A stretch of 64,000 nt of DNA from Promethearchaeota archaeon (GCA_048937405.1 JBHLNF010000012.1:1-64000); one strand, 5' to 3'; positions 9,252 to 40,721 are shown, counted from the stretch's first letter. Program-made: numbers and translations. The notes: generated from the letters alone by a model not told the origin.

Positions 9252-10442
9252 TTATCTTCTCATCTTTAGGAAATCACCAGATTTCATTAGATTACATGGT
9301 TTAAGGTACTCTTTTCCAGTCTTTTCTGCTATATCATCAAGCAATTTAGACCAATTATCATAATTATGTTTCCCAGCACTAAATGGTCCAGGCATACTAG
9401 TTCCTTTTAACATAATATCATCAATAATTTTATAACCGGAAATAATCCCTTCCTCTAAAAGTCTACAACCTTCATTTAATTGGATTGCTAAAATAATTTC
9501 TGGATTAAATAAACCTGCCTTTTTTCTTAAATTTATATTTGGTCTTCCTTTCGTCCAATCATAGAAGCCTTTTCCCGTCTTTCTTCCTAGGGTTCCTTCT
9601 AATACAAATTTAGAAAGTACTTTACCTGGAGCAAAATCAGGGGATATATATTTTTCATAACTCTTCATACTATTATAACTAACATCTATTCCAAGATAGT
9701 CTGTTAATTGACATGGACCCATTTGGACTAACTTTTCTGTTCTTGCGTCAGCATCAATTTGTTCCCATGGAATATTCCTTTCATGTGCTAGGTCAAAAAT
9801 CCAGTTTGAATATATAAGAGAAGGAATTAAAAGTCTATTTGCAATAAATCCTGGGCTTTCCTTTTGAATTCGTACTGAAAGCCTTTTTCCTTTAACACAA
9901 GGTAAATTTTCACCCAAAATTACACACATATCTAACACTTCATCAGATGTTTTTTTACCTTTCATCACTTCAACACAGCATTGATAAGGAACTGGAGCAA
10001 AAAAATGCATTCCAATAACTTGTTCTGGTCTTTTTGACCCTTCTGCAATATCAGTAATTCTAAATGTTGAGGTATTTGAGGCAAATATAGAATGATCGGG
10101 TGAATTTTGCATTACTTTATGGCATACTCTTTTTTTAACTTCAATTTTTTCCGTAACAGCTTCGAATATGAAATCAGCATCCTGAACTGCAGAAACTAAA
10201 TCTATTGATTTTATACATTTTCTTAAAAGATCATCAATAGAGATAATATCTCCCAAATTTCCTTTAGCTTCCATCTTTAGTAGGCTTTGCTCAATTTTTT
10301 TCACTCCATTTTCTAAATTTTCTTCATTTAGATCTATTAATGTTACTGTATAGCCTGCCATTAGTGATACTTGAGCAATTCCTTGACCCATTACACCTGC
10401 ACCCACTATACATATATTATTAAGCTTATCAAAATTATACAT
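9252..10442 (-). CDS. 3-hydroxyacyl-CoA dehydrogenase
   Basis: GAGVMGQGIA, EAVTE, ASNTST, GMHFF, PGFIANR, GRKTGKGFY. Confidence 0.92.
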   Translation of the reverse strand: MYNFDKLNNICIVGAGVMGQGIAQVSLMAGYTVTLIDLNEENLENGVKKIEQSLLKMEAKGNLGDIISIDDLLRKCIKSIDLVSAVQDADFIFEAVTEKIEVKKRVCHKVMQNSPDHSIFASNTSTFRITDIAEGSKRPEQVIGMHFFAPVPYQCCVEVMKGKKTSDEVLDMCVILGENLPCVKGKRLSVRIQKESPGFIANRLLIPSLIYSNWIFDLAHERNIPWEQIDADARTEKLVQMGPCQLTDYLGIDVSYNSMKSYEKYISPDFAPGKVLSKFVLEGTLGRKTGKGFYDWTKGRPNINLRKKAGLFNPEIILAIQLNEGCRLLEEGIISGYKIIDDIMLKGTSMPGPFSAGKHNYDNWSKLLDDIAEKTGKEYLKPCNLMKSGDFLKMRR

Positions 10443-10688
10443 TTTCCATTACCACCAAGAGTCTTTTTCATCAATTCTTTTAATTATTAAACAATAAATT
10501 AACATTTGGAATTTTTTATTTATTCATTTCTATATTATTATATAGATATCTACCTAAATGGGATTAGTACCTGTATAACCAGCATAAATGTCATTAAAAA
10601 ATATACTATTTTTAGATTTTCCATACACTTCACTTGAATTTGAAAATATTAAAAAAATAAAAAAAGAAATTATTAAAAGAGTTTAATT

Positions 10689-11366
10689 TTAGATTTTTAG
10701 TGGTTTGCCACCTTTTTCTAAGATTTCCACTTTAATGTTAGGATCCTTTTTCTCGAGCAATTCCTTGAATTCAGTCAGATTTTTGCCCCAATTTTGCCTT
10801 TATACATTATTTATGTATAAATTATGCATTGGGACTGCGATCTTTGGTTTCACATCAACAGTTGCATCCGTAGATTCATCAAAATCCATTGTATATGTTC
10901 CTCCGCATGGCATCAATGCTACTGTTATGTTACGACTTGCTAGATCTTTCATTTCAGGAATTCTTTCAGTATCTCCCGCATGATATACACTTTTATCCTC
11001 AGCACTTACTATTATCCCTGCCCAATTATTATTCTTTGGATGAGTTGGTTTTTTAATAGTATATGCTGGAACTAATTTAATAGAAAGATCTTTATAATCA
11101 AAAGAATCGTTTAACTTCAATGGTGTTCCATTAAATTCCTGCAAATTACTAGTGGCACTTTCAGGGCCAATAACAACTGTGTCATCTTTCATCAGTTTTT
11201 GTATACTACTTGAATCAAAATGATCCCCATGAGTGTGTGTTGAGACAATTATATCTGCTTTCTCTTCTCCTTCTTTAAGCTGGTAGGGATCAAGATATAT
11301 AGTTCTTCCACTAGGTGTTTTTATTTTAAATGCAGCATGACCAAGCCAATAAATATCCATTGTCAT
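10689..11366 (-). CDS. MBL-fold metallo-hydrolase (UPF0173/UlaG-like); two exons 11366-10823 and 10792-10689, 215 aa if spliced
   Basis: WLGHAAF, LDPY, THTHGDH, HAGDT, PCGGTYTMD, PMH. The ORF-track call stops at 10800, but the same frame resumes after a 30-nt insert as WGKNLTEFKELLEKKDPNIKVEILEKGGKPLKI*. Confidence 0.85.
10793..10822 (-). other. Candidate 30-nt BHB-type intron in the MBL-fold gene
   Basis: mRNA reads GUCCCAA|UGCA|UA^A|UUUAUACAU-AAAUA-AUGUAUAAA|GGCA|AA^A|UUGGGGC: 7-bp exon stem, 4-nt central helix (3 pairs plus A.G), two 3-nt bulges, 9-bp intron stem. It contains an in-frame UAA. Confidence 0.75.
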
Positions 11367-11505
11367 TTTTTTATTTCACCATATTAAATTATTTCAAAAA
11401 ATGATTTATATTATATTATTATCATCAGATATCTTATATTTATATCTCAAAATTAATAAATTAAGGTTAAAAATGAAAAGAAACTACCATATATTTTTTT
11501 AATTA

Positions 11506-11877
11506 TTAAGTTTCTTCTTCAAACTTCCATTCTGGATTTTCGAGAGAGATTCTTTTTAAGATCTTATAATTATCTTCCTTGATTAAATTAAGTTCTTTGA
11601 CCCTTTCGTAGAATAACTTATTTTTAAAGTCCGGGATTTCATTAATAAAATGAGGTTTTGATCTAAAAATGGGAAAATGCTGACCAGTTTTTTTTGGTGT
11701 TATATTACTAATAAACTTGTCCTCAAGATTCCTATTATTCTCAAAGAGAGGATGCTTAATTTTTAGAAAATTTTTACTTTTTGGATTTATATCTTTTAAT
11801 GGTATTGTAGATTTCAAAATTCGACAAATAGGACAATTTATTTCATCTAAACCGTGAATACACGTCATTTTTCCCAT
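11506..11877 (-). CDS. Hypothetical protein with N-terminal CxH...CxxC (Zn-binding) motif
   Basis: CIHGLDEINCPIC. Confidence 0.6.
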   Translation of the reverse strand: MGKMTCIHGLDEINCPICRILKSTIPLKDINPKSKNFLKIKHPLFENNRNLEDKFISNITPKKTGQHFPIFRSKPHFINEIPDFKNKLFYERVKELNLIKEDNYKILKRISLENPEWKFEEET

Positions 11878-12007
11878 ACTTTTTGTTTTTTCAAATTCTA
11901 AGTATTTCGAATCATTTTTATCATTTAATTTTTGCTATTATATTTTACATAATTTAAAAAATCAGAGTTCTCTAGAGAATTTAATAAATTTAGGTTAAAT
12001 TGAGTAT

Positions 12008-12769
12008 ATGTTATTAAAAGGTGTTTTTTTCGATTTTTATGGGACATTATTAGTGCCCAAAAATAGCAAGAAAGCATGGAAGAACTGGTTTAATACTTTT
12101 TATAAATTTTTGAAAACTCATGGATTAGATTTGACTGAAAAGGAATTTGCATATACATGTAAAGAATTTTTTCATAGACCAGAACCAACAAAAAATGAAG
12201 AAGATTTAACTGTTTATGAAAATAGGATAAATACATTGGCAATCGATTTAAATATAAAACTAGAAAAATCTGAAATTAAAGAAATTGCTGATGCCACTGT
12301 TAATGCGTGGCATAAACATGTGATAATTGACCCAGAAACAATACCCATATTAGATGATTTGAAAAATAAAAAAACCTTAGCCTTGGTTACTAATTTTGAT
12401 CATCATCCATCAATCTACACAGTATTATCTAAATATCAAATTACCAAATATTTCAAATTTATTGCAATTTCAGGAGAACTTGGAGTTAAAAAACCTAATC
12501 CAAAGATTTTTCACATTACACTTAAAAAAGTTGGATTAATACCTGAGGAGGTTATATTTATAGGCGATAGTAGTGAAGATATTGAAGGTGCTACAAATGC
12601 AGGTATTAAACCAATCTTAATTCAACGTCAAAAAATAAAAAGAATTTTAACTGGTAATGATTATTTTTCAAAAAAAGTAGGTAAAAACCCTAAAAAAGAA
12701 AATTTAGGAATAACTCCATGGAAGATTATCTCAAATTTAAGAGATTTATATGAAATTGTTAATTTATAA
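12008..12769 (+). CDS. HAD-superfamily hydrolase
   Basis: FFDFYGTL, VTNFD, KKPNPKIF, IGDSSEDIEGA. Confidence 0.9.
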   Translation: MLLKGVFFDFYGTLLVPKNSKKAWKNWFNTFYKFLKTHGLDLTEKEFAYTCKEFFHRPEPTKNEEDLTVYENRINTLAIDLNIKLEKSEIKEIADATVNAWHKHVIIDPETIPILDDLKNKKTLALVTNFDHHPSIYTVLSKYQITKYFKFIAISGELGVKKPNPKIFHITLKKVGLIPEEVIFIGDSSEDIEGATNAGIKPILIQRQKIKRILTGNDYFSKKVGKNPKKENLGITPWKIISNLRDLYEIVNL

Positions 12770-35158: not shown

Positions 35159-35261
35159 GCGCTCTTAGTATAGTGGTCAGTATGCCAGGTTGCCAATTCT
35201 CTGGTTCTAATAGACTTGAGAGGTGAACCTGGCGACCCGGGTTCAATTCCCGGAGGGCGCA
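35159..35261 (+). tRNA. tRNA-Gly(GCC) with 31-nt anticodon-loop intron (35197-35227; 35196-35226 gives the same product)
   Basis: Acceptor GCGCUCU/AGGGCGC, anticodon stem CCAGG/CCUGG, T-arm CCGGG-UUCAAUU-CCCGG. No encoded CCA. Confidence 0.93.
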
Positions 35262-40604: not shown

Positions 40605-40631
40605 ATCAATCTTATTTCGTTTATTTTTTAG

Positions 40632-40721
40632 TGGGCCCGGCGCGATTTGAACGCACGACCTTCCGCACGTCAAGCGGACGTCATTTCGGGGGTGACCCAT
40701 ACCGAGCTAGACCACGGGCCC
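40632..40721 (-). tRNA. tRNA-Val(GAC) with 16-nt D-arm intron (40684-40699, position 21/22)
   Basis: Acceptor GGGCCCG/CGGGCCC, anticodon arm UCCGC-UUGACGU-GCGGA, T-arm GUGCG-UUCAAAU-CGCGC; BHB UCGG-UA^U-GGG-UCA-CCC-CCGA-AA^U. Confidence 0.92.

What the first reader, a model, noticed from the sequence alone, without database searches (positions are those of the whole stretch)
10689..11366. Candidate BHB (tRNA-endonuclease-type) intron inside a protein-coding gene of an Asgard archaeon
Seen in sequence: the MBL-fold hydrolase appears to stop at PMHNLYINNV*, but the same frame resumes with a plausible family C-terminus (WGKNLTEFKELL...VEILEKGGKPLKI*). The interruption is exactly 30 nt. It folds as exon stem GUCCCAA/UUGGGGC (7 bp, one G-U), central helix UGCA/GGCA (3 pairs plus A.G), 3-nt bulges UAA and AAA, and a perfect 9-bp intron stem UUUAUACAU/AUGUAUAAA. 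Cutting after the second nucleotide of each bulge removes 10822-10793 and gives ...CCA AUG CAU AAU UGG GGC (P-M-H-N-W-G), 215 aa in total. Both tRNA introns in this window also have A at the scissile bulge position. Established: archaeal EndA cuts BHB motifs and RtcB ligates the exons, and the well-known archaeal mRNA example is the crenarchaeal cbf5 intron. Inference: this lineage may splice mRNAs, so that full-length protein depends on EndA/RtcB. The imperfect central helix could make splicing partial or regulated, conceptually like non-spliceosomal HAC1/XBP1 splicing. Standard annotation would call this a truncated gene.
Basis: partly seen in the sequence, partly recalled or inferred. Interest (0 to 1): 0.93.

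Follow-up and report, generated by a model that had tools for sequence, protein, structure and literature searches.

The report
tRNA-type mini-intron in Asgard hydrolase gene
A 30-base insert that seems to truncate a metal-dependent hydrolase gene of an Asgard archaeon has the shape, cut sites and evolutionary behaviour of an intron removed from the mRNA by the tRNA-splicing enzymes; in the papers I could search, this is reported inside an archaeal coding sequence only for cbf5.

Summary
On the minus strand, a UPF0173/MBL-fold hydrolase gene (11366..10689) is interrupted by exactly 30 nt (10822..10793). These 30 nt carry an in-frame TAA and sit in a bulge-helix-bulge (BHB) fold.

Intron-less orthologues read PMH-N-WGK, exactly the predicted splice product. 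I found the same-site 30-nt insert in 21 distinct alleles from two genera.
- Its stems covary: 18 cells changed on both sides against 6.3±1.9 in shuffles.
- Exon 2 is as constrained as exon 1 (dN/dS 0.07 against 0.10).
- Of nine possible 30-nt deletion registers, only the canonical cut after the second nucleotide of each bulge restores the conserved Asn in all 21 alleles.

Intron-bearing alleles are not one clade (AU p = 4e-36), yet intron and gene divergence correlate. The likeliest history is an old, vertically inherited intron that was lost precisely many times.

The genome encodes a catalytic and a His-less EndA paralogue, RtcB and archease. It also has same-sized BHB inserts in a tRNA-Gly gene and in at least four other protein genes that I checked.

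No RNA data were available, so excision itself is inferred, not shown.

This scan had already noted such mini-introns on other DNA: other genes of this genome, other Asgard genomes, and this same hydrolase in another genome. The accessible literature reports only crenarchaeal cbf5.

The parts
10823..11366 (-). Exon 1 of the UPF0173/MBL-fold hydrolase gene (ATG at 11366; ends with CAU A, the first base of the Asn codon; intron phase 1)
   Evidence: ORF list. Pfam Lactamase_B_3 1.1e-25 and Lactamase_B_2 3.8e-18. PDB relatives are UPF0173 hydrolases such as TM_1162.
10793..10822 (-). 30-nt BHB intron: last base of bulge 1, 9-bp hairpin with a 5-nt loop, the 3' strand of the central helix (GGCA), and the first two bases of bulge 2
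   Evidence: Absent from 31 intron-less orthologues and present at the same site in 21 distinct alleles. Covariation. Only this register restores HNW in all alleles.
10800..10802 (-). In-frame stop codon TAA inside the intron (3' arm of the hairpin). It is TAA or TAG in 21 of 21 alleles.
   Evidence: Column 38 (the middle A) is invariant even in the four alleles where its pairing partner changed.
10689..10792 (-). Exon 2: AU of the Asn codon, then WGKNLTEFKELLEKKDPNIKVEILEKGGKPLKI and the stop (10691-10689)
   Evidence: Same frame as exon 1. NCBIfam PRK00685 aligns through it (residues 3-218 on model positions 1-222 of 228). dN/dS is 0.07 among intron-bearing alleles. In the AlphaFold model of an intact orthologue it forms a helix and two short strands, with pLDDT 92-96 from residue 191 on.
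10829..10835 (-). 5' strand of the exon-exon helix h (GUCCCAA)
   Evidence: Pairs with 10785-10791. 92.5% of cells are paired over 21 alleles. RNAfold and RNAalifold both predict it.
10785..10791 (-). 3' strand of the exon-exon helix h (UUGGGGC)
10825..10828 (-). 5' strand of the central 4-position helix H (UGCA, exonic: the Met and His codons)
   Evidence: U-A and G-C are invariant, C-G holds in 20 of 21 alleles, and the fourth position pairs in only 4 of 21.
10795..10798 (-). 3' strand of the central helix H (GGCA, intronic). GCA is almost invariant although it is non-coding.
   Evidence: Alignment A2: C43 and A44 are invariant and G42 is present in 20 of 21 alleles, whereas the loop is free to vary.
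10822..10824 (-). Bulge 1 (UA|A), 5' splice site after 10823
   Evidence: Bulge 1 is UAA in 19, UAU in 1 and CAA in 1 allele.
10792..10794 (-). Bulge 2 (AA|A), 3' splice site after 10793
   Evidence: Bulge 2 is AAA in 19, ACA in 1 and AGA in 1 allele.

Best explanation
The 30 nt at 10822..10793 (minus strand) are a bulge-helix-bulge intron in the pre-mRNA of a UPF0173-type MBL-fold hydrolase. The transcript folds so that the conserved codons on either side (GUC CCA A / U UGG GGC) form an exon-exon helix. The Met and His codons pair with the intronic GGCA as the central helix. Two 3-nt bulges lie on opposite strands, and the rest of the intron forms a 9-bp hairpin. The genome's splicing endonuclease would cut after the second nucleotide of each bulge. 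It probably has an (alpha-beta)2 make-up: a catalytic subunit most similar to the crenarchaeal alpha subunits, plus a paralogue that lacks the His. RtcB, with archease, would then join the exons to give ...PMH-N-WGK... and a 215-aa enzyme. Unspliced mRNA would give a 188-aa protein that lacks the C-terminal helix and strands. Shown here: the anatomy, the homology, the covariation, the selection on exon 2, the exact junction, and the presence of the enzymes. Inferred: that the RNA is actually cut and ligated, and by these enzymes. The intron is old, predating the split of two genera of one family. It is inherited vertically and has been lost precisely many times.
For: (1) The geometry is exactly as described.
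(2) 31 intron-less orthologues read PMH N WG at the junction. The insert is always 30 nt, always at the same site, and always carries an in-frame TAA or TAG.
(3) Over 21 distinct alleles, 90.5% of cells are paired, against 23-54% when the partners are slid. 7 pairs and 18 cells changed on both sides, against 6.3±1.9 cells in shuffles (0 of 500 reached 18). 5 of the 9 intron-stem pairs are compensatory. RNAalifold finds the two helices on its own.
(4) Of nine 30-nt deletion registers, only the canonical BHB cut gives H-N-W in all 21 alleles. L009 (bulges UAU and ACA) and L046 (AGA) exclude the neighbouring registers.
(5) Exon 2 has dN/dS 0.07 in intron-bearing alleles, against 0.10 for exon 1. 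No allele has a frameshift or a stop in exon 2. Exon 2 is a confidently modelled part of the fold.
(6) The non-coding GCA of the central helix and the A-rich bulge 2 are the most conserved intron positions, while the loop diverges faster than the CDS (p-distance 0.385 against 0.242).
(7) Machinery in the genome: two EndA paralogues (30% identical). One keeps a His (LEHS) where the other reads FEKDS in the BLASTP alignment, and its best PDB matches are the Aeropyrum, Sulfolobus and Pyrobaculum alpha subunits. RtcB and an adjacent archease are also present.
(8) Same class elsewhere in this genome: a 31-nt BHB intron in tRNA-Gly, and 29-31-nt BHB inserts whose canonical removal restores rubredoxin, mevalonate kinase, Rpo10 and an AIR-synthase-family gene.
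(9) Precedent: the crenarchaeal cbf5 intron, whose lineage-specific loss is also inferred (PMC2738675).
Against: There is no RNA-level observation. No spliced junction, excised intron or exon-2 peptide has been seen for this gene.

The central helix has only three Watson-Crick pairs in the window allele. Its pairs never covary, because the 5' strand is fixed by the Met and His codons.

Thermodynamic folding does not form the 4-bp helix with its bulges. It leaves a 6x6 internal loop instead.

The alleles are related, so the shuffle statistics overstate independence.

The trend for intron-bearing alleles to keep the exon helix better (20 of 21 against 23 of 31 with at least 6 of 7 pairs) is not significant (p = 0.07).
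Confidence: 0.86

Rival explanations
1. The ribosome, not an RNA-processing enzyme, skips or reads through the insert. Either it hops from a take-off codon to a matching landing codon over the hairpin, as in phage T4 gene 60, or it reads through the TAA/TAG and makes a 225-aa protein with a 10-residue insert.
For: The window allele has AAU immediately before the insert and AAU as its last three bases, and a stable hairpin lies between them. A hairpin under selection would also covary.
Against: In L009 the codons are AUU and CAU, and in L046 AAU and GAU, so take-off and landing codons do not match. Hopping from CAU to CAU in L009 would drop the conserved Asn. The stop is six codons after the putative take-off codon, not next to it. 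The insert peptide is not conserved as protein (LYINNV, LHVINV, PYNLLV, QYMLNV, PFMIHV, LYTGHI), and its changes follow base pairing instead. Readthrough would put 10 residues next to the invariant His181, which by analogy with UPF0173 relatives I take to be a metal ligand.
Confidence: 0.04
2. The insert is a disabling insertion. The gene is a pseudogene, or only the 188-aa product is made and the downstream 33 codons are a remnant.
For: Standard annotation-192-aa truncated proteins in several assemblies. The flanks share the short repeat AAT.
Against: Exon 2 is intact in the same frame in all 21 alleles. These differ from one another by a mean nucleotide p-distance of 0.24 over the CDS. Exon 2 has pS 0.71 and pN 0.14, so dN/dS is 0.07, as low as in exon 1. 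The insert has persisted since before two genera split. It is unique in the genome, so it is not a spreading element. Exon 2 is a well-ordered part of the fold.
Confidence: 0.02
3. The 30 nt are removed, but not by EndA and RtcB: either another RNA-processing activity acts on the hairpin, or the segment is excised from the DNA in part of the population between the AAT repeats.
For: Excision is not shown, so the enzyme is inferred. Intron-less alleles exist in close relatives, so precise removal at the DNA level has happened in evolution. The flanking AAT microhomology could support slippage.
Against: The positions that are conserved or covary are exactly those of the BHB motif: two 3-nt bulges on opposite strands, four positions between them, and flanking helices. 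The only register that always restores Asn is the EndA rule. 30 nt is too small for any self-splicing intron that I know of (my own knowledge, not a tool result). DNA excision needs no RNA structure and would not maintain one.
Confidence: 0.06
4. The insert is an assembly or sequencing artefact.
For: None beyond the fact that the window comes from a metagenome-assembled genome (5.7% contamination estimate).
Against: The insert is present at the same site in assemblies from NCBI, JGI, ENA and Logan. They carry 21 different sequences.
Confidence: 0.01

Closest known systems
BHB intron in the cbf5 (pseudouridine synthase) pre-mRNA of Crenarchaeota (Desulfurococcales, Sulfolobales; Yokobori et al. 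2009, PMC2738675, and the earlier work it cites)
   Same: A short intron inside a protein-coding sequence, flanked by a bulge-helix-bulge motif. It is attributed to the tRNA splicing endonuclease of the two-subunit, broad-specificity type. It has a patchy distribution that is explained by an ancestral gain and later lineage-specific precise losses. Annotation pipelines mis-call the gene.
   Different: The host gene is different (a UPF0173 MBL-fold hydrolase, not cbf5) and so is the phylum (Asgard, by the names on the nearest relatives' records). Here the intron is one of several of 29-31 nt in protein genes of one genome. cbf5 splicing was shown experimentally; this one is supported only by comparative evidence.
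Archaeal tRNA introns (hBHBh' motif; the abundant tRNA introns of Asgard archaea: PMC11291895 and bioRxiv 10.64898/2026.10.13.758758)
   Same: The motif geometry, the cut rule and the size class are the same: tRNA-Gly(GCC) in this very window has a 31-nt intron with AA|N bulges. The presumed enzymes are also the same. The preprint reports two full-length EndA paralogues, consistent with an (alpha-beta)2 make-up, in 44 of 60 Asgard genomes.
   Different: The exon part of the motif is built from codons (Pro-Met-His-Asn / Trp-Gly), not from a tRNA stem. The product is a translatable mRNA. Neither paper mentions introns in protein-coding genes.
IRE1-dependent HAC1/XBP1 mRNA splicing in eukaryotes
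   Same: This is spliceosome-independent, protein-only mRNA splicing. An endonuclease cuts at two RNA structures, and in animals RtcB joins the exons. The full-length reading frame depends on splicing.
   Different: The endonuclease (IRE1) and the recognition motif (paired stem-loops) are different. It is a regulated stress response that changes the frame. No regulation is shown here, and the frame is kept because the intron length is a multiple of three.
UPF0173 metal-dependent hydrolases (PRK00685; Thermotoga TM_1162, PDB 3X2Z)
   Same: The host protein matches Pfam Lactamase_B_3 and Lactamase_B_2 above the cut-offs and aligns over its whole length to PRK00685.
   Different: The NCBIfam score (96.4 bits) is below the equivalog cut-off (144), so it is a relative and not a certified equivalog. 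The substrate is unknown.

Membership tests
Archaeal BHB (EndA-type) intron | [quoted passage not shown] | tested here: met
   The bulges are 3 nt in all 21 alleles and four positions separate them. U-A and G-C are invariant, C-G holds in 20 of 21, and the fourth position is a standard pair in 4 of 21 (otherwise A.G or A.A). This is a slightly relaxed central helix.
Archaeal BHB (EndA-type) intron | Flanking helices: exon-exon (h) and intron (h') | tested here: met
   A 7-bp exon helix (92.5% of cells paired) and a 9-bp intron helix (94.2% paired, 5 pairs with compensatory changes). RNAfold and RNAalifold predict both.
Archaeal BHB (EndA-type) intron | Cutting after the second nucleotide of each bulge yields the functional product | tested here: met
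   It is the only one of nine registers that gives H-N-W in all 21 alleles. The junction is identical to that of 31 intron-less orthologues.
Archaeal BHB (EndA-type) intron | Splicing endonuclease and RtcB-type ligase encoded by the organism | tested here: met
   PF01974 matches twice (103 and 71 bits). RtcB scores 565 bits and archease 144 bits. The catalytic paralogue is most similar to crenarchaeal alpha subunits.
Archaeal BHB (EndA-type) intron | Excision and exon ligation observed in RNA | not testable with these tools
   No RNA run was listed for this stretch. No exact spliced product was found among the 120 best homologues.
cbf5 intron of Crenarchaeota (as an orthologous intron) | Located in the cbf5 gene of Desulfurococcales or Sulfolobales | tested here: not met
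   The host gene is an MBL-fold hydrolase in an Asgard genome. It is the same kind of intron, not the same intron.
Translational bypass (T4 gene 60 type) | Matching take-off and landing codons, with a stop codon directly after the take-off codon | tested here: not met
   The codons differ in L009 (AUU and CAU) and L046 (AAU and GAU). The stop lies six codons downstream.
UPF0173 metal-dependent hydrolase (NCBIfam NF001911 / PRK00685) | Score above the curated equivalog cut-off | tested here: not met
   96.4 bits against a cut-off of 144, although the alignment covers positions 1-222 of 228. The Pfam Lactamase_B_3 and Lactamase_B_2 cut-offs are met.

The most novel reading that the evidence does not exclude
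This intron is one of a genome-wide population of roughly 30-nt EndA-type introns in Asgard protein-coding genes. They evolve like eukaryotic introns: old, vertically inherited, and repeatedly and precisely lost. The always-retained in-frame stop would make synthesis of the full-length enzyme conditional on splicing. That would be a protein-only mRNA splicing layer, possibly regulated, in the closest archaeal relatives of eukaryotes.
Probability: 0.25. Interest if true: 0.92.

Novelty: new member of a known kind. Interest (0 to 1): 0.8.

Why it matters
In the literature I could search, endonuclease-type introns inside archaeal coding sequences are reported for only one gene, crenarchaeal cbf5. 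This report adds a second, unrelated gene in Asgard archaea, with unusually rich natural genetics. There are 21 intron alleles and 31 intron-less ones. Two alleles pin the cut sites to single nucleotides. Well-supported branches of the gene tree force at least ten gains or losses of the intron.

Practical consequence: gene callers truncate such genes. Seven of the 120 best homologues (about 6%) are database proteins of 186-192 aa that are mis-annotated in this way, so metabolic reconstructions of Asgard genomes will under-call genes.

Conceptual consequence: Asgard archaea would routinely splice mRNAs with the tRNA machinery, and the introns show presence/absence dynamics across species. This gives a testable system for how introns in protein genes are gained, kept and lost before the spliceosome existed.

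Tried and rejected
- RNA evidence: no RNA holder was listed for window 10400-11700.
- Exact spliced products: BLASTP of the in-silico spliced proteins of all intron-bearing alleles against the 120 best database homologues found no intact protein above 95.8% identity. No RNA-derived spliced contig could therefore be recognised.
- Pattern scans: scans of metagenome contigs and genome contigs with a 15-base degenerate pattern were too loose.
- Genome-wide scan: my scan of G000 for BHB geometry plus ORF restoration recovered this locus and one further convincing case (C7:314179). It was not specific, however: 1052 candidates against 988-1100 for the 4-bp-helix decoy geometries, and only a slight excess at 14 or more of 15 pairs and 28-33 nt (34 against 13-28). 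It gives no count of introns. The first version timed out.
- Synonymous-site test: intron-bearing alleles tend to protect the exon helix more than intron-less ones, but this is a trend only (p = 0.07-0.22, and the rows are not independent).
- Repeated element: the hairpin has no other copy in the genome, so the repeated mobile-element idea was dropped.
- Recent horizontal spread: intron distance correlates with CDS distance (Mantel r = 0.51, p = 0.0006) and the loop diverges freely. The idea is therefore disfavoured.

Full report
**What is there.** On the minus strand, an ORF of 188 aa (11366..10800) ends PMHNLYINNV*. The same frame resumes and runs to 10689 as RQNWGKNLTEF...PLKI*. The protein is an MBL-fold hydrolase of the UPF0173 type:
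- Pfam Lactamase_B_3 1.1e-25 and Lactamase_B_2 3.8e-18.
- NCBIfam PRK00685 aligns over positions 1-222 of 228, straight through the interruption, but scores below its equivalog cut-off.
- The PDB relatives are UPF0173 hydrolases such as TM_1162.

- exon helix GUCCCAA/UUGGGGC;
- central UGCA/GGCA (three pairs plus A.G);
- bulges UAA and AAA;
- a perfect 9-bp hairpin.

RNAfold gives -21.5 kcal/mol, z = -5.05. The hairpin has no other copy in the 4.47-Mb genome.

**Orthologues.** A protein search returned many intact orthologues of 211-219 aa, all reading PMHNWGK[DN]L. It also returned seven apparently truncated ones of 186-192 aa that all stop six residues after PMH(N/I). I fetched their DNA. 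I then scanned 399 genomes of the phylum with stops read through and cut out further regions.

Every truncated copy has an insert of exactly 30 nt at the same site. Each has an in-frame TAA or TAG, and exon 2 is intact in the same frame. Every other copy has no insert and reads PMH-N-WG. After removing duplicates there are 21 different intron alleles and 31 intron-less genes. The intron occurs in the window's own genus (13 of the listed genomes) and in a second genus of the same family (G167, G174).

**Structure under selection.** On the gap-free alignment of the 21 alleles (A2) I counted the BHB structure.
- 90.5% of cells are standard pairs, against 23-54% when partners are slid by 1-3 columns.
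- 7 pairs and 18 cells show changes on both sides (shuffles 6.3±1.9 cells; 0 of 500 reach 18).
- In the intron hairpin, 5 of 9 pairs have compensatory changes: U-A/C-G twice, A-U/G-C, C-G/U-A and U-A/A-U.

RNAalifold finds the exon helix and the hairpin without being told. Like RNAfold, it leaves the BHB core open.

The central helix offers no covariation, because its 5' strand is the Met and His codons. Its intronic strand (GCA) and bulge 2 are nevertheless the best-conserved non-coding positions. The hairpin loop, by contrast, diverges faster than the coding sequence (p-distance 0.385 against 0.242). The fourth central position is A.G or A.A in 17 alleles and A-U in 4, so it is not required.

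**The cut sites.** In most alleles the repeat AAT at both ends makes four deletion registers equivalent. Two alleles break the tie:
- L009 has bulges UAU and ACA, and its unspliced reading is PMHI...QHWG.
- L046 has bulge 2 AGA.

I removed 30 nt in nine registers from all 21 alleles. Only the cut after the second nucleotide of each bulge gives H-N-W everywhere. The neighbouring registers give HHW, HDW or HIW in those alleles. The Asn is present in all but one of the intact orthologues I aligned. This is the archaeal endonuclease rule, and it also argues against ribosomal hopping, whose take-off and landing codons would not match in these two alleles.

**Exon 2 is expressed.** Among intron-bearing alleles, exon 2 has pS 0.71 and pN 0.14, so dN/dS is 0.07. 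Exon 1 gives 0.10, and intron-less genes have the same pN. No allele has a frameshift or a stop in exon 2. An AlphaFold model of an intact orthologue (pLDDT 88.9) places exon 2 as a helix (188-197) and two short strands, with pLDDT 92-96 from residue 191 on. A pseudogene or a dispensable tail is therefore excluded.

**History.** I built a maximum-likelihood tree of 52 coding sequences with the intron columns removed. On it, intron presence needs 15 changes, and well-supported branches alone force at least 10. The AU test rejects a single clade of intron-bearing alleles (p = 4e-36).

Intron and CDS distances are correlated (Mantel r = 0.51, p = 0.0006), and the loop evolves freely. An old, vertically inherited intron with many precise losses therefore fits better than repeated insertion or recent spread. 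Recombination between lineages could reduce the number of events, and a gene tree is not a species tree. Patchy loss has also been inferred for the cbf5 intron, where replacement by a reverse-transcribed spliced mRNA was proposed (PMC2738675). The AAT microhomology would also allow slippage.

**Machinery and context.** The genome has two EndA paralogues of about 200 aa, 30% identical. In the BLASTP alignment one reads LEHS where the other reads FEKDS, so the second lacks that His. The His-bearing paralogue's best PDB matches are the catalytic alpha subunits of Aeropyrum, Sulfolobus and Pyrobaculum. RtcB and an adjacent archease are also present. A two-subunit, broad-specificity enzyme is the type reported to cut relaxed motifs (PMC5829648 abstract).

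tRNA-Gly(GCC) in the same window has a 31-nt intron with the same architecture.

Earlier notes of this scan listed many ~30-nt BHB inserts in protein genes of this genome and of other Asgard genomes. I checked three myself:
- Rubredoxin: 29 nt, central helix GCGU/GCGU; removal gives CPVCGVGKDMFEKIEG*.
- Mevalonate kinase: 31 nt; removal gives FGE|HFVVYG.
- Rpo10: removal gives RMIVSHVDLIDELL.

My own scan found one more in an AIR-synthase-family gene. Its exon 2 starts at position 43 of the 112-position AIRS profile.

**What is missing.** Excision and the identity of the enzymes are therefore inferred.

One hint deserves a look. All 21 alleles keep the in-frame stop. Its middle A is invariant even in the four alleles whose pairing partner changed. 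In those alleles the stop is UAG, so a compensating A-to-G change would turn it into UGG and destroy it.

**Literature.** Searches for BHB or endonuclease introns in archaeal or Asgard protein-coding genes returned only the cbf5 work. Recent Asgard papers deal with tRNA introns only, and a 2026 review of non-canonical splicing does not mention archaeal mRNA.

**Verdict.** This is a real BHB intron in a protein-coding gene, with strong comparative support (confidence 0.86). It is a new member of the kind known from cbf5, and part of a wider, apparently unpublished set of mini-introns in Asgard genes.

Noticed in passing
window 35159-35261 (+): tRNA-Gly(GCC) has a 31-nt intron at the canonical 37/38 position. 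I read its BHB as central helix UGCC/GGUG with bulges AA|U and AA|C. It is the same size class as the mRNA intron.
   Followed up: partly
window 40631-40721 (-): A 91-nt tRNA gene is called Arg(CCG) by ARAGORN in default mode and Ser(UGA) with a 12-nt non-canonical intron in intron mode. Rfam misses it at the gathering score. It probably carries one or more non-canonical introns.
   Followed up: no
G000 C7, minus strand, intron about 314151-314179 (locus L300): A 29-nt insert has a perfect 15 of 15 pairs in my BHB scan (central helix ACGU/GCGU). It splits an AIR-synthase-family gene, and exon 2 begins at position 43 of the 112-position AIRS N-domain profile. I did not see this one named in the earlier notes shown to me.
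   Followed up: partly
G000 C7:+ about 432996 (rubredoxin), C7:+ about 997406 (rpo10), C17:+ about 197212 (mevalonate kinase): Three further protein genes carry BHB-flanked inserts (29 nt in rubredoxin, 31 nt in mevalonate kinase; the rpo10 insert was not sized). Removal by the canonical rule restores conserved motifs: CPVCGVGKDMFEKIEG, RMIVSHVDL and FGE|HFVVYG.
   Followed up: partly
window 10800-10802 and alignment A2 columns 37-39: The in-frame stop inside the intron is kept in 21 of 21 alleles (TAA or TAG). Its middle A does not covary when its partner changes, which suggests selection for a stop in unspliced mRNA.
   Followed up: partly
window 9252-12769 and L010: The gene order HAD hydrolase / 120-aa ORF / MBL hydrolase / 3-hydroxyacyl-CoA dehydrogenase is shared with the closest relative (L010). 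More distant relatives have an AMP-binding enzyme or a phosphorylase next to the hydrolase instead.
   Followed up: no
protein collection, P0002, P0042, P0046, P0068, P0071, P0074, P0086: Public annotation lists these hydrolases as complete 186-192-aa proteins. They are exon-1-only calls of intron-bearing genes.
   Followed up: yes
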